Positions 3,200 to 62,658 are shown, counted from the stretch's first letter. The stretch is 64,000 nt of DNA from Parcubacteria group bacterium Gr01-1014_8 (GCA_007376385.1 VMGC01000002.1:32001-96000); one strand, 5' to 3'. Made by a program: numbers and translations. Notes: generated by a model from the letters alone, not told the origin.

Positions 3200-3517
3200 A
3201 TGCAGATAGACGACTTGGATAGAACAGAGCTGGAACAGATATTGAAGCTTACGAAGGAGAATAATCGCATGCTGCATGCGATGAGGCGCAACGCGTGGCT
3301 GGGCGGTATCTTTAAGGTCTTGCTTTGGGCGGGACTTATCATTATCCCGTTCTGGCTGTATATGCAATATCTCGCGCCTGTTATGCAGAGCGCGATGGAC
3401 ACCATGGATCAGCTGCAGGGAACCGGTGCCAAAGCTCAAGCGCAATTCAGTGACCTCAATAACGCGATGCAGAAGCTTCAGGATCTGTACCCGCAATATT
3501 TTCAGAGTAAACAGTGA
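3200..3517 (+). CDS. Hypothetical membrane protein
   Basis: ORF with a central TM hairpin; starts 4 nt after the previous ORF. Confidence 0.45.
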   Translation: MQIDDLDRTELEQILKLTKENNRMLHAMRRNAWLGGIFKVLLWAGLIIIPFWLYMQYLAPVMQSAMDTMDQLQGTGAKAQAQFSDLNNAMQKLQDLYPQYFQSKQ

Positions 3518-3681
3518 AGCGCGAGCTTCACTTTTAAGAACCCACGGTTCTCAACGCTCGCTCTGCTCACTGCTCTCCTCCTCGGGAAAACTACAGTTTT
3601 CCCGACCCCTTTCGAACTCGCTTTACCTTATTCAAGGCTAAGAACATAGATGGCAAGCGAGGTAGATGGTATAGTGCCTCA

Positions 3682-3752
3682 CGCGCCTGGATATATGTGT
3701 ATCCAGTCGTCGCTCGGAGAAAATGCAAAAGCGAGCTTCCGCATTTTGCTCC
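3682..3752 (+). repeat. Two adjacent hairpins (CCTGGATA..TATCCAG; AAAATGC..GCATTTT with CGAGC in the loop) related to the hairpin/CCGAGC-box repeat family
   Basis: Inverted repeats seen in sequence, directly upstream of tRNA-Phe. Confidence 0.4.
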
Positions 3753-6016: not shown

Positions 6017-8133
6017 GGCCACTTTGCGACCATGAGGAGTGGTTCGTCCTTGTGCGGCATCTTTTGCCAGATAGCTTCCGTCACGAACGGCATGAACGGG
6101 TGGAGCAGTTTGAGAGAAGTTACAAGCAGCTCGTAGAGCAATCGTTGGCGGGACTGCCTCTCTGTGGGGTCTTCGCTTTTGAGAATGGATTTCGATTCTT
6201 CGATGACTTCGCTCGCGAAGCGATTCCAAAGGAAATGATACAGGTTTTCAGCTGCCAAATAGAATCGATATTTATCTATACTCTCTGTCGTGTCTGCTAT
6301 CACGTACGACATTTCATTAATGAGATCTGCGTCGTAGGTCGTGAATTCTGCCTTCAGGAAATCTGCTGATGCATCTGTATTCTCAAGGACAAAGCGCGCA
6401 ACATTCCAGAGTTTATTCGAAAAGAGTTTATACGCCTTTATCTTTTGTTCGGAGAGGGCCATGTCCATGCCCGGTGTGTTGCCGACAAGGAGCGCCATGC
6501 GCAGTGCGTCGGTCCCAAATACTCTTGTAACTTCCAGGGGGTTGATAACGTTGCCTTTGCTCTTGCTCATTTTCTGTTTCTGGGCATCGCGCACAAGTCC
6601 GTGCAAAAAGACATCCCGGAAGGGAACTTCACCGGTTCGATACAGGCCAAGCATTATCATGCGCATCACCCAAAAGAACAGGATGTCATAACCTGTTTCC
6701 ATGACTGACGTCGGATAGTAGGTTTTGAAGTCCGGCGAGTCAGGATAGCCAAGTGTGGCAAACGGCCACTGTCCTGACGAGAACCATGTGTCGAAGGTGT
6801 CGGGATCCTGTACCCATCCTTCGCCTGGGGATTCCGCTTGAATTTTTATCTCGTCGTCTTTGAACCATGCGGGTATTGGTATGCCCCAGACTATCTGCCG
6901 CGAAATATTCCAATCGCGGAGCCCTTCGAGCCAGTGGAAGAATATCTTTCTGTACTGTTCACTGACGAACGTGATGCGGCCGTCTTCAACTGCCTTGCCT
7001 GCCATATCAGCGAGAGGCTTTATCTTTACGAACCACTGCGGCATGACACGAGGCTCGAGGATGTCGTGCTCGCTTTTGTAATTGACAAGGACGTTGTGCG
7101 TGTACTTTTCATCGACTTTCACGAGCATACCTTTCTCTTCAAGGTCGCGAGCAACGGCTGCACGAGCTTCAAGTATTTTCATGCCCGCATATTTTCCGCA
7201 TTTTTCATTGAGACGCCCAAATTTGTCGATGACTTCGACAACAGGCAAACCATGTCGCTGTGCCACCGCGAAGTCATTTGGGTCATGTGCCGGCGTGATC
7301 TTGACAACGCCCGTACCGAATGCTTGGTCGACGTATTCATCCGCGATGACCTTGAGCTTCACGGTGCCCGTGAGACCCTCGAATTCGATCTCCTTGCCGA
7401 CCCATTTTTTATATCGTTCATCATTCGGATTTACTGCGACGGCTGTATCGCCGAATTTTGTCTCTGGTCTCACGGTCGCGAGTACGAAGGGCCCGTATTT
7501 CAGGTAGTACAGCGGGTCATTTCTCTCGACCACCTTAGTTTCGAGATCGGAAAGCGATGTCTGGTATTTGGTGCTCCAATGAACGGGACGCGAGCCCCGC
7601 ACGACGAGTCCGTCGTTGAACATCTTTTTGAATGTGCCGTAGACGGTAGATACAATTTTCGGGTCGAGTGTAAAGGTATTGCGGCTCCAATCGCACGAAG
7701 CGCCAAGCTCACGCAGCTGTCCTTCCATGAATTTTTTGTTCTCAAGCGTGAAGGCAAGCGTTTCTTTGTAGAATTCATCTCGCGGCATTTTGAAACGCGA
7801 ACGGCCCTCTTTTTCAAGTTTTTTCTCGAATACGATCTGGGTCTCGAATCCGGCATGGTCGCCTCCCGGCAGCCAGAGGGTCTTGTATCCCCGCATTCGT
7901 TTGTAGCGTATAAGAAGGTCTTGGAGGGTTACGAAAAGCGCGTGGCCAACATGAAGAGAGCCGTTGGCGTTCGGCGGCGGCATGATAATGCAGAATGGCT
8001 CCTTGTGTTCTTCGGGAAGGTTATCTGGATTAAAGTAGCCGCTTTGTTCCCATAAGGAATAGATGCCCGGCTCAGTGTCCGCCGGATCGTACGGTTTGAG
8101 GAATTCTTCTGGTGCGCTGCCTCGATTCTCCAC
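6010..8133 (-). CDS. valS: Valine--tRNA ligase, compact form (707 aa, no C-terminal coiled coil)
   Basis: PPPNANGSLHVGHA (HIGH), KMSKSKGN (KMSKS), TFDTWFSS; class I editing-type synthetase architecture. Confidence 0.85.
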   Translation of the reverse strand: MENRGSAPEEFLKPYDPADTEPGIYSLWEQSGYFNPDNLPEEHKEPFCIIMPPPNANGSLHVGHALFVTLQDLLIRYKRMRGYKTLWLPGGDHAGFETQIVFEKKLEKEGRSRFKMPRDEFYKETLAFTLENKKFMEGQLRELGASCDWSRNTFTLDPKIVSTVYGTFKKMFNDGLVVRGSRPVHWSTKYQTSLSDLETKVVERNDPLYYLKYGPFVLATVRPETKFGDTAVAVNPNDERYKKWVGKEIEFEGLTGTVKLKVIADEYVDQAFGTGVVKITPAHDPNDFAVAQRHGLPVVEVIDKFGRLNEKCGKYAGMKILEARAAVARDLEEKGMLVKVDEKYTHNVLVNYKSEHDILEPRVMPQWFVKIKPLADMAGKAVEDGRITFVSEQYRKIFFHWLEGLRDWNISRQIVWGIPIPAWFKDDEIKIQAESPGEGWVQDPDTFDTWFSSGQWPFATLGYPDSPDFKTYYPTSVMETGYDILFFWVMRMIMLGLYRTGEVPFRDVFLHGLVRDAQKQKMSKSKGNVINPLEVTRVFGTDALRMALLVGNTPGMDMALSEQKIKAYKLFSNKLWNVARFVLENTDASADFLKAEFTTYDADLINEMSYVIADTTESIDKYRFYLAAENLYHFLWNRFASEVIEESKSILKSEDPTERQSRQRLLYELLVTSLKLLHPFMPFVTEAIWQKMPHKDEPLLMVAKWPI

Positions 8134-23747: not shown

Positions 23748-23854
23748 TATGACCCCGTAACGAAATGTGCCTTAGGCTTGAACATCATATGAAAACAAAT
23801 CACCAAAACGGACAAATCAACAAAGTCGAACTTTATCTGTCGAGGATAGCAAGC

Positions 23855-24075
23855 GAAATGCGAAAGCGCAGGTTTCGCATTTCCGAGCGACACAGACAGC
23901 AAAGGTTTAAAACCCCGCGGCTTGCCTGCCTGTGCGATGCACGCAGACAGGCCGCGGAATTTGGGAAACGAGCAGCGCTCGTTTTCCAGAGTCCAGGGCT
24001 TGCCCTGGGGGTTGAAACCTTTCATCCGACCACGCCGCGGCAGCCGGCAGGCGTCTGCCGCAAAGGCACATTTTC
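23855..24075 (+). repeat. Structured intergenic element, copy B of the hairpin/CCGAGC-box family (GAAATGCGAAA..TTTCGCATTTC hairpin, CCGAGCGACACAGACAGCAAAGGTTTAAAACCCCGCGGCTTGCC core, internal palindromes, then GGGTTGAAACCTTTCAT)
   Basis: 50-nt core differs from copy C at 31361-31412 by one mismatch; lies between pyrF and pyrE. Confidence 0.6.
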
Positions 24076-25792: not shown

Positions 25793-25912
25793 TAAAGGTT
25801 CCTCATTGAACCTATGTTGACTCCTCGCTCCGAAGTGAACATGCGTACATGCCCGCTTCCCTCGCAACGCTCGTCAATGAAAGGGTCTTCTTGTCTAGAG
25901 CGAGGGAGTGAT

Positions 25913-26020
25913 ATACCCCGTGAGATATGTATAAAAAAGGCATCTTAACTAGCTGATTATTCATTTGAATTTATAGATTGTGATGAGAAATTTGGAGTGT
26001 ACCTATCTCATGGGGTATAC
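25913..26020 (+). promoter_or_regulatory. Inverted box pair ATACCCCGTGAGATA ... TATCTCATGGGGTATAC around a 76-nt spacer, about 25 nt upstream of the 26045 start
   Basis: Family member; arms pair G:U as RNA. Confidence 0.55.
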
Positions 26021-26044
26021 TTCTCACGACAGGCGCTTGTAACC

Positions 26045-26503
26045 ATGAAGTCGATAATTTCGATCGTAGCAGTGTTGCTGATGGCAGGAGTCGCGTACAT
26101 TATATGGCCGCAGTTCGCGAATGCACCGCAAATAGATGATCCTAGCGCGACAGAACGGGTCTCGGAACAGAAGAATGTACCGGTGGATGAGCAATTTGCA
26201 ACACTTATTACGTACACAGATGGGGGGTATAGCCCGCAAACGGTTTCAATAAAAAAAGGTCAGACAGTCAGGTTCGTTAATAACGCAGAACGCCAGGATA
26301 CATGGCCTGCGTCCGCCATACATCCCACCCATTCGATCTATCCGCAAAAAACGGACAGCGATTGTCTAGGGAGTTCATTCGATCCATGCCACGGATTAAA
26401 GCCGGGAGAGTTCTGGGAGTTTACGTTCAATGAAGTCGGGGAGTGGGGTTTCCATGACCACTTGCATCCGTCGAAGTTCGGGAAGATCCTCGTTACTGAA
26501 TAG
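26045..26503 (+). CDS. Secreted cupredoxin-like small protein (possible copper-binding beta-sandwich)
   Basis: Signal/anchor MKSIISIVAVLLMAGVAYI, then beta-rich region with His/Cys/His/Met-type ligand candidates (HPTHSIYP, CHGLKPGEFWEF, HDHLHP). Confidence 0.4.
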   Translation: MKSIISIVAVLLMAGVAYIIWPQFANAPQIDDPSATERVSEQKNVPVDEQFATLITYTDGGYSPQTVSIKKGQTVRFVNNAERQDTWPASAIHPTHSIYPQKTDSDCLGSSFDPCHGLKPGEFWEFTFNEVGEWGFHDHLHPSKFGKILVTE

Positions 26504-27637: not shown

Positions 27638-28804
27638 TTATTTTCGACGAAGGAAGGAAGGAAGTCCACCCCATGCGTCATCGTCGTCGTCAGAAGCCGG
27701 ATCGCTTGCTCGCGGAATTTCCCTTGGAGATGGCGTTTCGCTTGGCTTTTGCGTTTCCACGCTCTTTCTCTCCATTCGCAAAGGCGGCAGCTCGTCAGCC
27801 TTGCGGCCGGCGAGTCTTTGAGGACCAAAAAGCTGTCTCCCTGTTCCTTCTGGAAAGCCTGTCGCGATGACCGTGACTCGTACCTGGCCTTTCTTGAGAT
27901 TGTCGTCCGTAACAGCGCCAAAAATAACCTTTGCCTCCGGGTCGATGGCTTCTGTTATGACATTGGCTGCATCCTGGATCTCCAACATGCCGAGATCCTC
28001 GCCGCCTGCGATGGAGAAGAGGACGCCCTTCGCACCTGTTATAGAAACTTCGAGGAGGGGAGAGTTTATTGCGGCACGAGCAGCGGACTCTGCACGCTTC
28101 TCACCCATAGCCGTTCCGATGCCCATAAGCGCCGAGCCCGCATTTTGCATGATGGTGCGCACGTCCGCGAAGTCTACGTTTATGATACCCGTTGTTGTAA
28201 TGAGGTCGGAAATACCCTCGACCGCCTGTTTTAAGATATCGTCACACATCGCGAAGGCGTTCTTGATGCCAGTATCTCTCGAAACAATAGAGAGAAGTTT
28301 TTCGTTCGGTATGATGATGATGGCGTCAACTGCCTTCCGGAGCTCCGAGATGCCTTGCTCTGCAAGCCTCATTCTCTGCGCTCCTTCAAATGCAAAGGGT
28401 TTCGTGACTACTCCAACCGTGAGGGCGCCAAGCTCGCGCGCTACTTTCGCGATGACGGGAGCCGCACCGGTCCCCGTGCCGCCGCCCATTCCACCGGTAA
28501 TAAACACCATGTCGGAACCTTTGAGGGCATCTTGAATATCTTCCTTCGTCTCTTCCGCCGCTTGTTTGCCAATATCAACATTCATGCCTGCGCCAAGTCC
28601 GCGCGTCAAACTTTTGCCGATATGGATCTTTTTCTTGGCTCTCGATTTATGGAGGTCCTGCGCGTCTGTGTTTATTGAAATGAAATCTACGCCGACGACG
28701 TGGGACGCCACCATGTGATTAACGGCGTTTCCGCCGGAGCCGCCGACGCCAACTACGCGTATCCGAGCAAATGACTCAACGTCGGGCTTGATCTGCTTGG
28801 CCAT
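27638..28804 (-). CDS. ftsZ: Cell division protein FtsZ
   Basis: GGGTGTG tubulin signature with GVGGSGGNAV; start placed at MAKQIKP, internal to ORF 27638..28840. Confidence 0.9.
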   Translation of the reverse strand: MAKQIKPDVESFARIRVVGVGGSGGNAVNHMVASHVVGVDFISINTDAQDLHKSRAKKKIHIGKSLTRGLGAGMNVDIGKQAAEETKEDIQDALKGSDMVFITGGMGGGTGTGAAPVIAKVARELGALTVGVVTKPFAFEGAQRMRLAEQGISELRKAVDAIIIIPNEKLLSIVSRDTGIKNAFAMCDDILKQAVEGISDLITTTGIINVDFADVRTIMQNAGSALMGIGTAMGEKRAESAARAAINSPLLEVSITGAKGVLFSIAGGEDLGMLEIQDAANVITEAIDPEAKVIFGAVTDDNLKKGQVRVTVIATGFPEGTGRQLFGPQRLAGRKADELPPLRMERKSVETQKPSETPSPREIPRASDPASDDDDDAWGGLPSFLRRK

Positions 28805-28988
28805 GGTGAGCCCATGATAGCAGGGTTTTACGAAAGGCAAACCCGCACGCTAATGGTGCCTTGGTTGCGAAGTGTTTTCACAATATTACCAACAAAATTG
28901 CAAGTGTGATATCAGAATATGCGCCGCGGTGACTGACGCTGGAGGGGCAACAAAAACACAAAGGCACCATTTAGTGTGCGGGCAAATC

Positions 28989-29096
28989 GTTGACCCCGTG
29001 AGATAAACATGGTGACGTTCGAGTCGAACATGTGGTTTTGTTGTGGCTCTCAAGCACCGCCTAACAATAAGGAATGGGTTATCTCACGGGGTTGAC
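28989..29096 (+). promoter_or_regulatory. Inverted box pair GTTGACCCCGTGAGATAA ... TTATCTCACGGGGTTGAC (18-nt perfect inverted repeat, 72-nt spacer) in the ftsA-ftsZ intergenic region
   Basis: Family member with extended arms. Confidence 0.55.
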
Positions 29097-29137
29097 TTTA
29101 TCTATCGTTTATTGCGGCTAGCGAGGAATCGAGGCGA

Positions 29138-29290
29138 GAGATTGCTCTCATCTCGTCCGAGCGACGACGCAACATACGGGTCGAATACCCCGCGGCTTGC
29201 CGCGGGTGAGGACGTGCGAAGCGCGTTCCTCATGGTGGGGCTTGCCCCGTGGTATGAATACCCTTTTTATTCCCTGGTGTACGAGAGGGA
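29138..29290 (+). repeat. Hairpin/CCGAGC-box family copy F plus three GC-rich hairpins (CCCGCGGCTTGCCGCGGG; GAGGACGTGCGAAGCGCGTTCCTC; GGGGCTTGCCCC)
   Basis: Shares CCCCGCGGCTTGCC with copies B and C. Confidence 0.5.
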
Positions 29291-29297
29291 GGTGAGG

Positions 29298-30470
29298 TTA
29301 GGGCAAAAGCGTCCTAAAACCAGTGCGAAGCGAGTCGATCGTGCGGGAAAGAATGTCTCCAAACGTATGCATTGGCGCGGCGGCGTCTTCCGTGTACGCC
29401 CAGCGGCACAGCCCGTAGGCGACAGCCCACGTCGCGTCCAGACTACCAAGGCGCGGGATACCTGCTGGGACGCCGATCTGCGAAGGAATGCGAAGCGTTG
29501 TGCGTGCAATATCTGTCGCTTGTGCTACACCAGAACCGCCGCCGGTAATAACGATGCCAGCGGGAAGCAGCCGGTGCCGCCCGATAGTTTTTAAGTGTGC
29601 ATTCATCAGCAGGTACATTTCTTTGAGTTGGCTGGAAACAATGCTTCCCATTTTGCGCGGAGGAATGTCGCTGCCGGTTACCGCCCCTCGTTTCATCTGC
29701 TCTGCTTCCGAAAGCGGGATTTGGAACGAAAGCGCTATCGCGTTAGTGATATCCGATGAGCCGATAGGAAACACTTTCACGGAAATAGGTACATCGTTGT
29801 CATAGACGATGATGGAAAGCGTTTCAGCTCCGATATTCGCAAGAACTACACCGGCTGTCTTTTGCGCTTTGGTAAGTGTGACAAAACTCGCGGCGAGAGG
29901 GGAAGCCATCACGCCTTCTACTTCAATGCCGGCCGATTCGACTGCGTCAATAAGATCATCATGGTGCTGCGTCAGGATAGAAATAATGAGCGTGTCTACG
30001 GAAAGTTTTGTACCCTGAAGACCGTGCGGGCGGCCGCGAACAGGGATGCCGTCTATGCGGTACTCAAGAGGTATGGTATGCAGTATTGTACGATTTATGA
30101 GCCTGGAAATTGCCTTTTTTTCACTCTCGCGCTGTGAGCGCTCGATCTCTCTCTCGGTCGCAATTCCTCCCGATGTCGTTAGCGTGACATCTCCGGTCGA
30201 GCGCATTTCTTCTAAGCTGACTCCTCCCATTGCGATGCGGGCGCTCCGTACAGGCGTTTTTGACGCTTGAGCCGCCCTACCGACTGCCTCGCGGATGCTC
30301 CGTGTTACTTCCTTAGGGTCTACAAGATATCCGTGGCGCATGCCTTTCGAAGAGGCAGAGCCGGTGCCGATGATGGTCATTGGCAGCTCGGGTGAATCCG
30401 GGGGACTCGCAATGACTGCTTTCACATGGTACGTACCGATATCAATTCCTGTATAGATAGTTCGGCGCAT
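29298..30470 (-). CDS. ftsA: Cell division protein FtsA (actin-like ATPase)
   Basis: MRRTIYTGIDIGTYHVKAVIA phosphate-1 motif, 390 aa, directly upstream of ftsZ. Confidence 0.85.
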   Translation of the reverse strand: MRRTIYTGIDIGTYHVKAVIASPPDSPELPMTIIGTGSASSKGMRHGYLVDPKEVTRSIREAVGRAAQASKTPVRSARIAMGGVSLEEMRSTGDVTLTTSGGIATEREIERSQRESEKKAISRLINRTILHTIPLEYRIDGIPVRGRPHGLQGTKLSVDTLIISILTQHHDDLIDAVESAGIEVEGVMASPLAASFVTLTKAQKTAGVVLANIGAETLSIIVYDNDVPISVKVFPIGSSDITNAIALSFQIPLSEAEQMKRGAVTGSDIPPRKMGSIVSSQLKEMYLLMNAHLKTIGRHRLLPAGIVITGGGSGVAQATDIARTTLRIPSQIGVPAGIPRLGSLDATWAVAYGLCRWAYTEDAAAPMHTFGDILSRTIDSLRTGFRTLLP

Positions 30471-31267: not shown

Positions 31268-31340
31268 TGCGCTGGACAATAGCACGAGATACACACGTAG
31301 GCAAATAGAGGGGCCCTCTTTATTTGCGAGCGTTGCGAGA

Positions 31341-31434
31341 GAAACGCAGAAGAGCACTTTTGCATTTCCGAGCGACGCAGACAGCAAAGGTTTAAAACCC
31401 CGCGGCTTGCCCGTATGGGTTGAAACCTTTCATA
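31341..31434 (+). repeat. Hairpin/CCGAGC-box family copy C, with the same 50-nt core as copy B, directly followed by GGGTTGAAACCTTTCAT
   Basis: GCATTTCCGAGCGACGCAGACAGCAAAGGTTTAAAACCCCGCGGCTTGCC; potential stem AAAGGTTT/AAACCTTT. Confidence 0.6.
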
Positions 31435-42743: not shown

Positions 42744-44042
42744 ATGACCAAACTTTCATTTTTTCAGATAGTCGTACTCTCATCCTTCGGTGCTCTCGCG
42801 ATCGCGGGCGTAATGATATTTGCGTTCGTGGTCGGCGGCTCCGGAGGCGAGGGCATAGGAGAAGTGAAAATTTGGGGCACGCTGGACGCTGGCGCATTTG
42901 CAACGATACTCCGTCAGCTTGCGGAAGAGGACACTCGCATGAAAGCTGTAACGTATACCCAGAAAGATCAATCAACCTTCGATCGGGATGTGACCAATGC
43001 GCTCGCGTCCGGTGCGGGGCCTGACCTGTTCGTTCTCCGCAGTGATTTCGCAGAAAAGGAGGCAGCGAAGGTGTCGGCAATACCGTATGCGCTATTTTCG
43101 GAAGAACAATTTCAAAATACGTTCATCGAAGCGGCGAACGTATACATGGGTCCGGAAGGAGTGCGCGCCGTTCCGCTTGTTGTGGACCCGCTCGTACTCT
43201 ACTGGAATCGCGACATGCTGGCCTCATCGGGCTTTGCGAAACCGCCCGTGTTTTGGGACGAGTTGTTCGACATGGCGACAAAAATGACCAAAAAAGACGA
43301 TACGAATTCCATCATAAAGAGTACCATCGCGCTCGGTGAACATCAGAACGTGGATCATGCGAAAGAGATACTCTCGCTTCTCATCATGCAAGCTCAAGGC
43401 CGCATCACGCAAAGAGATGGTACGGGGAAATTGCAGACGGCGCTTGTGGCGCGCGCAGGAGATGTACAGCAGCCGACAGAATCGGCGCTCCGGTACTACA
43501 CTGAATTTGCGAACCCTATCAAAGCGCACTACACATGGAATCGCGCACTTCGAGAGAGCCGTTCAGCGTTCGCATCGGGAGATCTCGCACTTTATATAGG
43601 CCTCGCAAGCGAGGAGCCGTTGGTACGCCGCATCAATCCGAATTTGAACTTCGCTATTGCGCCAGTGCCGCAGATACGGGGCGGTGCTCGGAGCTTGAAT
43701 GTGGGACACGTATACGCATTTGCCGTACCAAAAGCGGCCAAGAATCTGCAAGGCGCTCTCACGGTTGCCTATACTCTTGCATCAATGGATACGTCAAAAC
43801 TATTCTCTAAGGCTCTTGGCATGCCTTCTGCAAGGAGAGATGTTCTTGCGGAGCCTGCGACGGGCAATGATGATCTTTTCAACAAGCAAGCCATCCTTGC
43901 GAGAGCGTGGGTAGACCCGGACCCGGAAAAAACTGATGTTATATTTAGAGACATGATACAGAGTGTCACCAGCGGCTCTGCGCGTCTCGGCGAAGCGATA
44001 CAGAGGGCGGATAAGACGATGAGCGACCTTCTCAGCATATGA
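42744..44042 (+). CDS. Membrane-anchored extracellular solute-binding protein (ABC substrate-binding, family 1-like)
   Basis: N-terminal TM helix then a periplasmic binding fold of about 400 aa. Confidence 0.55.
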   Translation: MTKLSFFQIVVLSSFGALAIAGVMIFAFVVGGSGGEGIGEVKIWGTLDAGAFATILRQLAEEDTRMKAVTYTQKDQSTFDRDVTNALASGAGPDLFVLRSDFAEKEAAKVSAIPYALFSEEQFQNTFIEAANVYMGPEGVRAVPLVVDPLVLYWNRDMLASSGFAKPPVFWDELFDMATKMTKKDDTNSIIKSTIALGEHQNVDHAKEILSLLIMQAQGRITQRDGTGKLQTALVARAGDVQQPTESALRYYTEFANPIKAHYTWNRALRESRSAFASGDLALYIGLASEEPLVRRINPNLNFAIAPVPQIRGGARSLNVGHVYAFAVPKAAKNLQGALTVAYTLASMDTSKLFSKALGMPSARRDVLAEPATGNDDLFNKQAILARAWVDPDPEKTDVIFRDMIQSVTSGSARLGEAIQRADKTMSDLLSI

Positions 44043-44144
44043 CCCCATGAGAGAAATACTTTCGATATACCTATGAACATGATTGAACAGATCTACATGT
44101 GGGAGACAACAAAACATTCAAGCAGTCTCTCTCACGGGGTATGA
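44043..44144 (+). promoter_or_regulatory. Variant box pair TATGACCCCATGAGAGAAAT ... TCTCTCACGGGGTATG. The 5-prime box overlaps the TGA stop of 42744..44042 and the 3-prime box abuts the ATG of 44141..44488
   Basis: Same arrangement as between infB and rbfA (50709-50814). Confidence 0.55.
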
Positions 44145-50710: not shown

Positions 50711-50814
50711 ACCCCGTGAGAGAAACTATCTAAAGCTACTAAGCTTGGTCGCATGCTGTTGGAAAGGATTGATTTCATATATATTTTAAAGAATATTCTC
50801 TCATGGGGTCATAC
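50709..50814 (-). promoter_or_regulatory. Variant box pair bridging the infB stop and the rbfA start (on the minus strand: TGACCCCATGAGAGAATAT ... TTTCTCTCACGGGGT-ATG)
   Basis: One arm overlaps the infB TGA, the other abuts the rbfA ATG; 14-bp potential RNA stem. Confidence 0.55.
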
Positions 50815-52351: not shown

Positions 52352-52455
52352 ATACCCCATGAGATAAAAAACTCATAGCCCAGTGATATAGGGTATTTGT
52401 CAAATCAAAATTCGTCGCGCAAAAAGTGTCAAGCGATCTATCTCACGGGGTATAC
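52352..52455 (+). promoter_or_regulatory. Inverted box pair ATACCCCATGAGATA ... TATCTCACGGGGTATAC (72-nt spacer) between divergent infB and the cysteine desulfurase gene
   Basis: Family member. Confidence 0.55.
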
Positions 52456-53860: not shown

Positions 53861-54069
53861 CTACCCCGTGAGATAAAGTCATTCGGTGTATGTGGAGGTG
53901 ATGTTGCTTGGTGACTAATATCGAACGCGGCTCATAACTTTTCGCCATATCTCATGGGGTCTACCCCGTGAGATAACTGTTCGTCTTTTGTTTCGAATTG
54001 TAGTTCATGTATCCATAGTACAATGTCGGTAATGAGACATCTATACACCTCCTATCTCATGGGGTATAT
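53861..54069 (+). promoter_or_regulatory. Two tandem inverted box pairs: CTACCCCGTGAGATAA ... ATATCTCATGGGGT|CTACCCCGTGAGATAAC ... TATCTCATGGGGTATAT, ending 13 nt before the 54083 start
   Basis: The central 29-nt near-perfect palindrome is formed by abutting boxes. Confidence 0.55.
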
Positions 54070-62499: not shown

Positions 62500-62521
62500 G
62501 CCCTGCACGTCTTCGTATTGA

Positions 62522-62608
62522 CCCCATTAGAGAAGGATCATTTCCTTCCAGCTTGTTCTGCGTATTCGCTCTTCAAAAATTGATCGAAATAGGACCAAAG
62601 CATTCTCT
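62522..62608 (+). promoter_or_regulatory. Inverted box pair variant ATTGACCCCATTAGAGAA ... CTCTAACGGGGTTGAC, about 50 nt upstream of rpmG
   Basis: Diverged family member. Confidence 0.45.
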
Positions 62609-62658
62609 AACGGGGTTGACCTAGAGCCGCTATTTGGCTATAGTGCGCCCGAATCGAT

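What the first reader, a model, noticed from the sequence alone, without database searches (positions are those of the whole stretch)
28841..29297. Unusually long, repeat-dense ftsA-ftsZ intergenic region
ftsA and ftsZ are normally close neighbours. Here they are 457 nt apart. The gap holds an 18-nt perfect inverted box pair (28989-29096), a hairpin/CCGAGC-box copy (29138-29170) and three further GC-rich hairpins (CCCGCGGCTTGCCGCGGG, GAGGACGTGCGAAGCGCGTTCCTC, GGGGCTTGCCCC). That suggests ftsZ is transcribed from its own regulated promoter through a highly structured leader.
Basis: partly seen in the sequence, partly recalled or inferred. Interest (0 to 1): 0.5.

Follow-up and report, generated by a model that had tools for sequence, protein, structure and literature searches.

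The report
Mobile hairpin repeats fill ftsA-ftsZ gap
The long, hairpin-rich spacer between the cell-division genes ftsA and ftsZ of this small-genome (Kaiserbacteria-like) bacterium is not a regulatory leader: it is a pile-up of small inserted hairpin repeats lying just upstream of a conserved ftsZ promoter, and one of them belongs to a widespread repeat family built around a tiny GIY-YIG nuclease gene.

Summary
Both genes are on the minus strand. The gap is 493 nt (28805-29297), the second longest of 66 intergenic gaps in the window. It folds far better than shuffles.

ftsZ has its own promoter, but it sits directly against the start codon. A -35-like TTTGCC and an extended -10 TGCTATCAT lie 9 nt before the ATG, and this layout is conserved in about 20 relatives. 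The structured DNA lies upstream of the promoter, so it is not a leader.

Relatives have gaps of 62-1314 nt that share only this promoter. The extra 450 nt is a mosaic:
- A unique 141-bp inverted-repeat element flanked by CAAA duplications.
- A copy of a second repeat, a conserved hairpin with tandem G.A pairs.
- Three GC hairpins.

Removing the first two elements restores the ancestral promoter-upstream sequence. Elsewhere the same arms flank an approximately 87-aa GIY-YIG nuclease gene. That architecture resembles the Ssn nuclease and its repeats, and an IS with its MITE derivatives. Mobilisation by this nuclease is inferred, not shown.

The parts
29298..30470 (-). ftsA (390 aa)
   Evidence: ORF. 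Gene call with SHS2_FTSA/FtsA Pfam hits on three assemblies.
27638..28804 (-). ftsZ (388 aa, start ATG at 28804)
   Evidence: Gene calls give 388 aa with Tubulin/FtsZ_C. Relatives align from residue 1.
28814..28822 (-). Extended -10 of the ftsZ promoter: TGC TATCAT, followed by 9 nt (GGGCTCACC) and the ATG
   Evidence: TGcTATnAT is invariant or nearly so in 22 aligned sequences (raw listing). No Shine-Dalgarno sequence lies between it and the ATG.
28836..28841 (-). -35-like TTTGCC of the ftsZ promoter
   Evidence: Conserved TTTGCS block in relatives. Its distal 4 nt (TTTG on the minus strand, CAAA on the plus strand, 28838-28841) are duplicated at 28983-28986.
28842..28982 (.). Element (a): 141-bp insertion with 24-bp imperfect terminal inverted repeats (CCCGCACGCTAATGGTGCCTTGGT / ACAAAGGCACCATTTAGTGTGCGGG), a 92-nt interior, and 4-nt direct repeats CAAA on both flanks (28838-28841, 28983-28986)
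   Evidence: Inverted repeats I3 and I6. Sequence. Deleting it plus one CAAA restores GTCAACGATTTGCC, as in relatives. No other copy in about 2 Mb of related DNA.
28990..29095 (.). Family-1 element c3. The element proper is 28994-29091, with arms CCCCGTGAGATAA (28994-29006) and TTATCTCACGGGG (29079-29091) and a 72-nt interior between the 13-nt arms. It is flanked by direct repeats TTGA at 28990-28993 and 29092-29095.
   Evidence: The duplicated TTGA lies inside the conserved GTCAAC block of the ancestral promoter-upstream region. Stem pairing is complete only on the plus strand.
29096..29206 (+). Family-2 repeat ('CCGAGC box'). Conserved 5' CTTTATCT. Hairpin 29112-29172: P1 TTGCG/CGCAA, then GC-GA-GG opposite CC-GA-GC (tandem G.A), then P2 with loop ATTG. 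The 3' hairpin CCCGCGGCTTGCCGCGGG (29189-29206) has its 5' half shared with the other copies.
   Evidence: nhmmer finds copies at 23840-23928, 31326-31414 and 29112-29203, plus a partial copy at 3703-3751(-). Alignments. All 12 family members fold to the same architecture with different stem sequences, and the plus strand is usually the more stable.
29208..29248 (.). Two further GC-rich hairpins: GAGGACGTGCGAAGCGCGTTCCTC (29208-29231) and GGGGCTTGCCCC (29237-29248)
   Evidence: Sequence, fold. No other copies found.
29251..29268 (+). Weak terminator-like hairpin on the plus strand: GGTATGAATACC, then C TTTTT
   Evidence: Sequence. Below the tool's G+C threshold, so not listed. Inference only.

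Best explanation
The ftsA-ftsZ spacer is an ancestral intergenic region of about 65-100 nt that held little more than the ftsZ promoter. At least three or four insertions of small hairpin-forming repeat elements, just upstream of that promoter, have expanded it.

Shown by comparison:
- ftsZ is served by a conserved extended -10 promoter 9 nt from its ATG, giving a nearly leaderless mRNA.
- Everything structured lies upstream of that promoter.
- Element (a) and element c3 each carry terminal inverted repeats and 4-nt flanking duplications. Removing them restores the sequence seen in relatives.
- c3 belongs to a family with arms CCCCGTGAGATA/TATCTCACGGGG. Its ORF-less members of about 100 bp are scattered through intergenic DNA, often splitting the TATA of -10 boxes. 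Its long members carry an approximately 87-aa single-domain GIY-YIG nuclease gene whose last codons (YLTG plus the stop) are the right arm.

Inferred:
- The short elements are internal-deletion derivatives of the nuclease cassette, in the way MITEs derive from an IS.
- They are moved or maintained in trans by that nuclease, which recognises the arm hairpin, probably as single-stranded DNA by analogy with Ssn nucleases.
- In this spacer they are passengers. At most they act as a structural buffer between ftsA read-through and the ftsZ promoter.

The 'CCGAGC box' is a second, REP-like hairpin repeat of unknown partner.
For: Promoter:
- Searches show the conserved GTCAAS-TTTGCS-N13-TGCTATNAT-N9-ATG block.
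- In the window, 21 of 67 ORFs have TANNNT 5-9 nt before the ATG, and only 4 of 67 have a Shine-Dalgarno-like motif.

Variable spacer:
- Relatives' gaps run from 62 to 1314 nt, median about 126.
- Only the promoter-proximal part is shared.
- Long gaps in relatives are also structured (z -1.9 to -6.0) but unrelated in sequence. Some hold other inverted-repeat elements: L023 has a 19-nt IR with 68 nt between the arms, L010 a 15-nt IR with 88 nt.

Insertion signatures:
- CAAA and TTGA duplications and the empty-site reconstruction.
- A second reconstruction at copy c2: TGA|TATA|[element]|TATA|CT gives TGATATACT, matching relatives' TGGTATACT promoter of the same gene.
- Copies c4, c5 and L098 carry TATGA on both sides, preserving a stop and a start codon. 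c5 lies between infB and rbfA.
- Family-wide, 18 of 99 non-palindromic flanks are 4-nt direct repeats against 1.4 expected by permutation, with a maximum of 6 in 2000 permutations.

Family size:
- 9 copies in 64 kb.
- Interior length has its mode at 71 nt.

Nuclease link:
- The same arms flank GIY-YIG ORFs.
- They do so also in Ignavibacteria and Gammaproteobacteria contigs.
- Deletion intermediates exist. L089 and L190 keep the C-terminal codons. In the same contig as the window, the element at about L213:2720-2826 keeps MYYVYVL fused to WGKGYLKLRIKHRE.

Precedent: the Ssn nucleases are single-domain GIY-YIG enzymes flanked by their own hairpin repeats, an IS-like layout (PMC11893778).
Against: - No transcription data. 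Upstream promoters or ftsA read-through could still send RNA through the hairpins.
- No GIY-YIG gene lies in the window or in the further 20 kb of its contig that I could read.
- Interiors of the short elements are unrelated between loci. Only 4 of 148 show nuclease-gene remnants. Recent copy-and-paste spread is therefore not demonstrated, and conservation of the arms needs an explanation of its own.
- The metagenome sample was selected for intact arms, which biases it.
- Two nuclease-bearing copies inside integrase genes restore the reading frame without removing any duplication. A target duplication is therefore not universal.
- Element (a) is single-copy.
- No presence/absence polymorphism was found. 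Three assemblies are identical.
Confidence: 0.7

Rival explanations
1. One reading: the spacer is a long structured 5' leader, such as a riboswitch, thermosensor or protein-binding leader, through which ftsZ is transcribed from a distal regulated promoter.
For: - Strong folding: z about -5.
- A possible extended -10-like TGGTAATAT at 28883-28891(-) inside element (a), pointing toward ftsZ (inference).
- ftsA read-through is not excluded.
Against: - A conserved promoter abuts the ATG.
- The structured part is absent or replaced by unrelated sequence in relatives.
- No Rfam family matches.
- The modules are dispersed repeats found beside unrelated genes in both orientations.
- No sigma-70 consensus promoter in 28700-29400.
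Confidence: 0.08
2. The spacer encodes one or more independent small RNAs on the plus strand, antisense or convergent to ftsA. The family-2 hairpin would be the core of a trans- or cis-acting RNA tied to the fts genes.
For: - Family 2 has two covarying helices around a conserved tandem-G.A internal loop, and it is more stable on the window's plus strand.
- Several relatives have hairpin-plus-T-run terminators after it (L008, L024, L004).
- A weak terminator-like site lies at 29251-29268 on the plus strand.
- In ftsZ-centred loci it recurs next to ftsA or ftsZ, always antisense (L004, L008, L053, L058 twice).
Against: - No Rfam match and no consensus promoter.
- Other window copies sit beside pyrF, rpsU and tRNA-Phe, one of them in sense orientation.
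- In L197 the flanking terminator is bidirectional, and the unit is carried inside family-1 arms.
- The loci were chosen around ftsZ, so proximity to the fts genes is partly an effect of sampling.
Confidence: 0.15
3. The inverted repeats are recombination sites of invertible promoter switches (invertons), or attC-like integron sites that control ftsZ.
For: Inverted repeats bracket AT-rich interiors of about 70-90 nt. Nuclease-bearing copies lie in or next to tyrosine-recombinase genes in other phyla.
Against: - The orientation is identical in three independent assemblies.
- No recombinase among the gene calls around the locus.
- The arm polarity (GTGAGA...TCTCAC) is opposite to attC R''/R'. 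This comparison rests on knowledge of integrons.
- The interiors lack any shared promoter.
Confidence: 0.03
4. The repeats are host-maintained functional hairpins rather than mobile DNA. Each copy would be kept by selection as, for example, an mRNA 3'-end protector, a terminator, an RNase III site, or a device coupling a stop codon to the next start.
For: - Arms are conserved and co-vary while interiors drift: c4 and c5 have GAGAGA/TCTCTC, c9 has GTTAGAGA/TCTCTAAC.
- Orthologous copies persist across genera (L009 and L010).
- Copies sit exactly between a stop and a start codon (c4, c5).
- One copy sits between positions matched by the RNase P RNA model, upstream of the conserved GGAAAGTCCGGGC block. 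Its placement at helix P3 is my inference.
Against: - Flanking duplications and empty-site reconstructions indicate insertion.
- The same arms bound a nuclease gene across phyla.
- There is no orientation bias relative to transcription: 19 sense, 14 antisense.
- This view complements the insertion model rather than excluding it, as domestication after insertion.
Confidence: 0.2

Closest known systems
Ssn nucleases and their SRM/NTS hairpin repeats (Chenal et al. 2025, PMC11893778)
   Same: - A single-domain GIY-YIG protein of about 90 aa.
- The gene is bracketed on both sides by copies of a repeat that is also dispersed through intergenic DNA.
- The repeat-gene-repeat layout is IS-like.
- Strand-asymmetric pairing (G.T on one strand only) fits recognition of single-stranded DNA.
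   Different: - Here each repeat unit is not itself a 20-50 nt hairpin. The two arms pair with each other across the gene or across about 71 nt.
- The arms do not fit the published SRM consensus HGTCWY...RNCYNB.
- The right arm is the 3' end of the ORF.
- The nearest solved relatives are UPF0213 proteins. Membership of cd10448 was not tested.
- The paper does not mention Patescibacteria.
- Flanking 4-nt duplications and insertion into -10 boxes are not described for NTS.
MITEs and Correia elements of Neisseria (own knowledge)
   Same: - Elements of about 100-150 bp with terminal inverted repeats and short target duplications.
- Many intergenic copies, often at promoters and between co-transcribed genes.
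- The hairpin forms in transcripts.
   Different: - Copies of a classical MITE share their internal sequence. Here the interiors are unrelated.
- The putative autonomous partner encodes a GIY-YIG nuclease, not a DDE transposase.
REP/BIME repeats with RAYT (IS200/IS605-like Y1) transposases (own knowledge; discussed in PMC11893778)
   Same: Dispersed extragenic palindromic units associated with a small nuclease or transposase gene that they flank. Probable single-strand hairpin recognition.
   Different: No Y1 transposase. The units are not 20-40 nt imperfect palindromes with a GTAG head. Flanking duplications are present in a subset.
Internal ftsZ promoters of the dcw cluster (E. coli, B. subtilis; own knowledge), and extended -10 or leaderless promoters
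   Same: ftsZ has a promoter of its own in addition to possible read-through. It has a TGnTATNAT extended -10.
   Different: Here the promoter lies in the intergenic DNA 9 nt from the ATG, with no Shine-Dalgarno sequence. That seems to be the norm in this genome.

Membership tests
Structured cis-regulatory 5' leader / riboswitch of ftsZ | Lies between the transcription start and the start codon | tested here: not met
   The conserved promoter is 9 nt from the ATG. The hairpins are upstream of it. The TSS itself was not measured.
Structured cis-regulatory 5' leader / riboswitch of ftsZ | Sequence and structure conserved upstream of the orthologous gene | tested here: not met
   Gaps of 62-1314 nt share only the promoter. 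No Rfam match.
Sigma-70 extended -10 promoter | TGn + TANNNT, with or without a -35, conserved at a fixed distance from the gene | tested here: met
   TGcTATnAT is invariant or nearly so in 22 sequences, and TTTGCS lies upstream. Activity is not testable here.
MITE (non-autonomous inverted-repeat transposon) | Terminal inverted repeats | tested here: met
   Arms of 13-18 bp in all 9 window copies and 142 metagenome copies. Element (a) has a 24-bp imperfect TIR.
MITE (non-autonomous inverted-repeat transposon) | Target-site duplication / recoverable empty site | tested here: met
   - 4-nt direct repeats in 18 of 99 non-palindromic flanks against 1.4 expected.
- Empty-site reconstructions for (a), c3 and c2 match relatives.
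- Not seen for two nuclease-bearing copies.
MITE (non-autonomous inverted-repeat transposon) | Copies share internal sequence (recent amplification) | tested here: not met
   Interiors are similar only at orthologous or tandem loci.
MITE (non-autonomous inverted-repeat transposon) | Autonomous partner with the same ends; deletion intermediates | tested here: inconclusive
   The same arms flank a GIY-YIG ORF. Intermediates are L089, L190 and the element at about L213:2720-2826. GIY-YIG is not a proven transposase, and no copy was found in 84 kb of this genome.
Ssn / SRM system | Single-domain GIY-YIG protein of about 90-100 aa flanked on both sides by its repeat | tested here: met
   PF01541 only, 84-92 aa. 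Arms lie on both sides.
Ssn / SRM system | The repeat is a local hairpin of 20-50 nt fitting the SRM consensus | tested here: not met
   A single arm is not self-complementary, and pairing is arm-to-arm across at least 56 nt. The consensus is quoted.
Ssn / SRM system | Protein in the CDD cd10448 clade; site-specific ssDNA cleavage | not testable with these tools
   No CDD search or SsnA sequence was available. The nearest PDB entries are UPF0213 proteins 1YWL and 1ZG2.
REP/BIME-RAYT | Short imperfect palindromes associated with a Y1 (IS200/IS605-like) transposase | tested here: not met
   The associated ORF is GIY-YIG. The units are not self-palindromic.
Inverton (invertible promoter) | Both orientations present; invertase nearby | tested here: not met
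   Three assemblies are identical in orientation. No recombinase among neighbouring gene calls. Read-level data were not available.

The most novel reading that the evidence does not exclude
The CCCCGTGAGATA/TATCTCACGGGG elements would be a so far undescribed kind of mobile element. An approximately 87-aa GIY-YIG nuclease gene, whose own 3' end forms one terminal repeat, spreads across bacterial phyla. In Patescibacteria it would have spawned large populations of ORF-less hairpin derivatives. These insert with a 4-bp duplication into the GTATAC core of -10 boxes, into stop/start junctions and even into RNase P RNA, and survive there because they fold out of the way.
Probability: 0.35. Interest if true: 0.7.

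Novelty: new variant of a known kind. Interest (0 to 1): 0.5.

Why it matters
For this locus, the analysis removes a tempting but wrong reading. There is no evidence for an elaborate ftsZ leader in this organism. The control region is a compact, conserved, nearly leaderless promoter.

More broadly, it shows that streamlined genomes of the candidate phyla radiation (CPR) still carry dense populations of small hairpin repeats. Family 1 has about one copy per 7 kb here.

It also ties one such family to a tiny GIY-YIG nuclease gene. This extends the recently described Ssn nuclease/repeat association to a different repeat geometry and to CPR bacteria.

The preference for the TATA of -10 boxes, and for stop/start junctions, gives testable cases of how an insertion can be tolerated inside essential operons such as infB-rbfA and ftsA-ftsZ.

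Tried and rejected
- Rfam at gathering and at E <= 10 thresholds: nothing in the gap except a chance miRNA hit.
- Sigma-70 two-hexamer scan of 28700-29400: 0 promoters, and 1 weak terminator inside c3. This was uninformative, because this lineage uses extended -10 promoters.
- Perfect-match inverted-repeat clustering missed family 1, because of its G.T position. A k-mer recurrence scan worked instead.
- The first nhmmer run gave an empty table and was redone with hmmbuild.
- RNAalifold on the MAFFT alignment of family 2 gave no structure, because the stems were misaligned. I used single-sequence folds instead.
- Search for a classical IS with these ends: none. Only the GIY-YIG cassettes of about 255-274 nt turned up.
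- Promoter motif inside family-1 interiors: no position-specific signal.
- Coding remnants in interiors: only 2-4 of about 140.
- ORF-fusion test for duplication length: informative only modulo 3, hence ambiguous.
- Presence/absence polymorphism between the ENA and Logan assemblies: the sequences are identical.
- GIY-YIG gene in the window plus 20 kb of flanks: none.
- Literature search for CPR repeats or MITEs: nothing specific.
- Inverton and attC readings were considered and rejected. The reasons are given under the rival explanations.

Full report
**What is at the coordinates**

Both genes lie on the minus strand: ftsA at 29298-30470 and ftsZ at 27638-28804. Gene calls on three independent assemblies carrying identical sequence give a 388-aa FtsZ that starts at the ATG at 28804. 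The true gap is therefore 28805-29297, or 493 nt.

The source is a Candidatus Kaiserbacteria-like member of the Parcubacteria (CPR): the closest FtsZ loci, at 72-80% identity, come from such MAGs. The gap is the second longest of 66 intergenic gaps in the window, whose median is 65.5 nt. It folds much better than dinucleotide shuffles, with z = -5.3 and -4.9 on the two strands. No Rfam family matches it.

However, the "18-nt perfect" pair is 14 nt perfect and 16/18 overall. The largest hairpin, with 24-bp arms at 28842-28865 and 28958-28982, was overlooked.

**The ftsZ promoter**

I lined up the 70 nt upstream of ftsZ in 26 relatives. About 20 of them share the block (A/G)GTCAA(G/C) - TTTGC(C/G) - about 13 nt - TGCTAT(G/T/C)AT - 9 nt - ATG. 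In a formal alignment of 22 sequences, the TG, TA, T and ATG columns are invariant. This is a textbook extended -10 promoter.

The window has TTTGCC at 28836-28841, TGCTATCAT at 28814-28822, then GGGCTCACC and the ATG. No Shine-Dalgarno sequence is present. That fits the genome as a whole: 21 of 67 window ORFs have TANNNT 5-9 nt before the ATG, and only 4 have a Shine-Dalgarno-like motif.

ftsZ therefore does have its own promoter, but its transcript is nearly leaderless. Everything repeat-dense lies upstream of the promoter.

**Relatives**

The ftsA-ftsZ gap in 25 close relatives ranges over 62, 70, 73, 74, 76, 87, 99, 105 ... 553, 588, 590, 659 and 1314 nt.
- The short gaps contain essentially only the promoter.
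- The window's spacer has no similarity to any of them except through one repeat unit.
- The gaps share only the promoter-proximal 45 nt or so among themselves.
- Long gaps in relatives are also structured (z -1.9 to -6.0). They contain other inverted-repeat elements of the same geometry: L023 has a 19-nt perfect IR with 68 nt between the arms, and L010 a 15-nt IR with 88 nt.

The spacer is thus a recurrent landing site, not a conserved regulatory region.

**Element (a) and element c3 are insertions**

Element (a), 28842-28982, is flanked by CAAA at 28838-28841 and at 28983-28986. Element c3, 28994-29091, is flanked by TTGA at 28990-28993 and at 29092-29095.

Deleting each element together with one copy of its duplication gives, on the minus strand, AAAGTCAACGATTTGCCTTTCGTAAAACCCTGCTATCATGGGCTCACCATG. 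This reproduces the relatives' GTCAAC-TTTGCC-...-TGCTATNAT arrangement. Compare L011: GAGTCAACGTTGCCCTTTCCCCCAAAATGCTATGATGTGCCCACTATG. Element (a) has no other copy in about 2 Mb of related DNA.

The arm motif occurs 20 times in the window against 1.55 expected. These occurrences form nine inverted pairs:
- 9987-10083
- 25915-26016
- 28993-29092
- 44042-44140
- 50711-50809
- 52354-52451
- 53863-53960
- 53963-54065
- 62521-62616

All nine are intergenic. Their arms are invariant, while the interiors are unrelated, AT-rich (GC 0.29-0.47) and unstructured (z about 0). The arms co-vary within this one genome: GAGAGA/TCTCTC in c4 and c5, and GTTAGAGA/TCTCTAAC in c9. Eight of the nine copies have a G.T position that pairs on only one strand.

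These yielded 142 non-redundant elements, with a modal interior length of 71 nt.
- Interiors are similar only between orthologous or tandem copies.
- The flanking 4-mers are dominated by TATA.
- Among 99 non-palindromic flanks, 18 are direct repeats against 1.4 expected by permutation.
- The elements lie in co-directional, divergent and convergent gene contexts, with no strand bias.
- Of 70 element ends that face an ATG-ORF of at least 100 codons within 60 nt, 28 have the ATG 11-14 nt after the terminal GGGG. In 24 of those 28, TANNNT follows the GGGG directly.

The reason is visible at copy c2. Its flanks read GAGTGA|TATA|[element]|TATA|CTTCTCAC. The pre-insertion site was therefore TGATATACT, the extended -10 box that relatives have upstream of the same gene (L009: TGGTATACTTCTACC). 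The family thus prefers the (G)TATA(C) core of -10 boxes.

Copies c4, c5 and L098 carry TATGA on both sides, so a stop codon and a start codon are both preserved. c5 sits exactly between infB and rbfA.

**The nuclease link**

The same arms also bracket interiors of about 254-274 nt that encode an 84-92-aa protein with only a GIY-YIG domain (PF01541). The nearest solved structures are the UPF0213 proteins 1YWL and 1ZG2. The right arm encodes the C-terminus ...YLTG plus the stop codon.

The protein family is very large, with at least 2610 clusters, and it spans phyla. All members inspected have the near-invariant tail REKYLKTAWGKRYIKNRIKNYLTG or a close variant of it. In Ignavibacteria and Gammaproteobacteria contigs the cassette has the same arms and interrupts tyrosine-recombinase genes. 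One of these is like an integron integrase. Removing CCCC...GGGG restores the reading frame.

Deletion intermediates exist. L089 and L190 keep the last 24 or so codons. In the same contig as the window, about 7 kb beyond its start, the element at about L213:2720-2826 encodes MYYVYVL fused to WGKGYLKLRIKHRE. These are the two ends of the nuclease gene. Only 4 of 148 short elements show such remnants, against 0 in a reversed-sequence control, so most copies are old.

The closest published system is Ssn: single-domain GIY-YIG nucleases specific for single-stranded DNA, whose genes are flanked by their own dispersed hairpin repeats. The authors themselves call this layout IS-like (PMC11893778). 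The present family differs in three ways. Its repeat geometry is arm-to-arm pairing rather than a local hairpin. It does not fit the SRM consensus. And one arm is part of the ORF.

Mobilisation by the nuclease is my inference. I found no nuclease gene in the 84 kb of this genome that I could read.

**Family 2, the "CCGAGC box"**

Copies lie at 23840-23928, 29112-29203 and 31326-31414, with a partial copy at 3703-3751(-). Further copies occur in other Parcubacteria: L004, L008, L024, L053, L058 (twice), L140 and L197.

All 12 examined fold into the same hairpin. It has an outer helix P1, then GC-GA-GG opposite CC-GA-GC (tandem G.A on the window's plus strand), then a 10-12-bp helix P2. Both helices differ in sequence between copies.

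In ftsZ-centred loci, family 2 recurs beside ftsA or ftsZ in antisense orientation. Elsewhere it sits beside unrelated genes. In L197 it is carried inside family-1 arms. I regard it as a second REP-like repeat of unknown partner. A small plus-strand RNA remains possible.

**Verdict**

The spacer is a mosaic of inserted hairpin repeats upstream of a compact conserved promoter.

The locus itself is ordinary in kind, comparable to REP/BIME, Correia or MITE clutter. The family it exposes, a GIY-YIG cassette with numerous ORF-less derivatives that target -10 boxes in CPR genomes, appears to be undescribed. It is worth a dedicated study.

Noticed in passing
window 9987-10083, 25915-26016, 44042-44140, 50711-50809, 52354-52451, 53863-53960, 53963-54065, 62521-62616: Eight further copies of the family-1 element, all intergenic. 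The pair at 53863-54065 is in tandem and shares its 4-nt junction TCTA. Lone half-sites lie at 15581(-) and 35628(+).
   Followed up: yes
window 50711-50809 and 44042-44140: c5 fills the whole space between the infB stop and the rbfA start. c4 lies between a solute-binding-protein gene and a T4SS-pilin-like gene. Both have TATGA on each side, so the duplication supplies a stop for the upstream gene and an ATG for the downstream gene.
   Followed up: partly
window 25907-26050: c2 splits an extended -10 box: TGA|TATA|...|TATA|CT. Relatives have TGGTATACT intact upstream of the same cupredoxin-like gene.
   Followed up: yes
whole window: The genome appears to use mostly leaderless or Shine-Dalgarno-less starts. 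21 of 67 ORFs have TANNNT 5-9 nt before the ATG (peak at 6 nt), and only 4 of 67 have GGAG, GAGG or AGGA at -5 to -16.
   Followed up: partly
window 23840-23928, 31326-31414, 3703-3751(-): Other copies of the family-2 hairpin (tandem G.A internal loop). The two full copies share a 3' extension ...AAAACCCCGCGGCTTGCC. One lies between a hisS-like gene and rpsU, one after pyrF, and one abuts tRNA-Phe.
   Followed up: partly
L213:2705-3168 (same contig as the window, about 5-6 kb before window position 1): The Rfam RNase P class A match (115.8 bits) spans a family-1 short element at about 2720-2826. The element lies just before the conserved GGAAAGTCCGGGC, which I take to be the position of helix P3. 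It still encodes a collapsed GIY-YIG mini-ORF (MYYVYVLWGKGYLKLRIKHRE). Downstream (about 3200-3560) lies a cluster of family-2-like hairpins.
   Followed up: partly
L204:2985-3261; L208/L209/L210:2975-3258: In Ignavibacteria and Gammaproteobacteria contigs, the GIY-YIG cassette with the same arms interrupts tyrosine-recombinase genes. One has the integron-integrase motif ALERKYPNASKEWGW. Precise removal of CCCC...GGGG restores the frame, with no flanking duplication.
   Followed up: partly
L197:5321-5496 and 6936-7111: Two inverted copies, 1.4 kb apart, of a 152-nt-interior element. Family-1 arms enclose a family-2 hairpin plus a bidirectional terminator.
   Followed up: no
L093:7032-7525; L141:1232-1524: Arrays of family-1 elements joined head to tail by 4 nt. 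L093 has short-long-short. L141 has three tandem copies, at least two of them near-identical.
   Followed up: no
L010:2525-2675 and 7377-7530; L010/L023/L009/L029 (arms TCCCGTTAGAAGT): Sister inverted-repeat families in relatives.
- One (arms GCCCGGCAGGACAATTTCGAAT) sits between the displaced ftsZ promoter and the ftsZ ATG in L010.
- The CCCGTTAGAAG family has a conserved inner hairpin and a TTGAC-N17-TGAATATA promoter-like motif. Read in frame, its arms would encode LLTG, like the YLTG of the window's family.
   Followed up: partly
window 28883-28891 (-): TGGTAATAT, an extended -10-like motif inside element (a), pointing toward ftsZ. It could be a second, element-borne promoter.
   Followed up: no
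window 28989-28994 and 29091-29096; relatives' loci: A strongly conserved GTCAA(G/C) block lies immediately upstream of the ftsZ -35 in relatives. On the opposite strand it reads as a perfect TTGAC. Its function is unknown. In the window it is duplicated by c3 and moved 145 nt away from the -35 by element (a).
   Followed up: no
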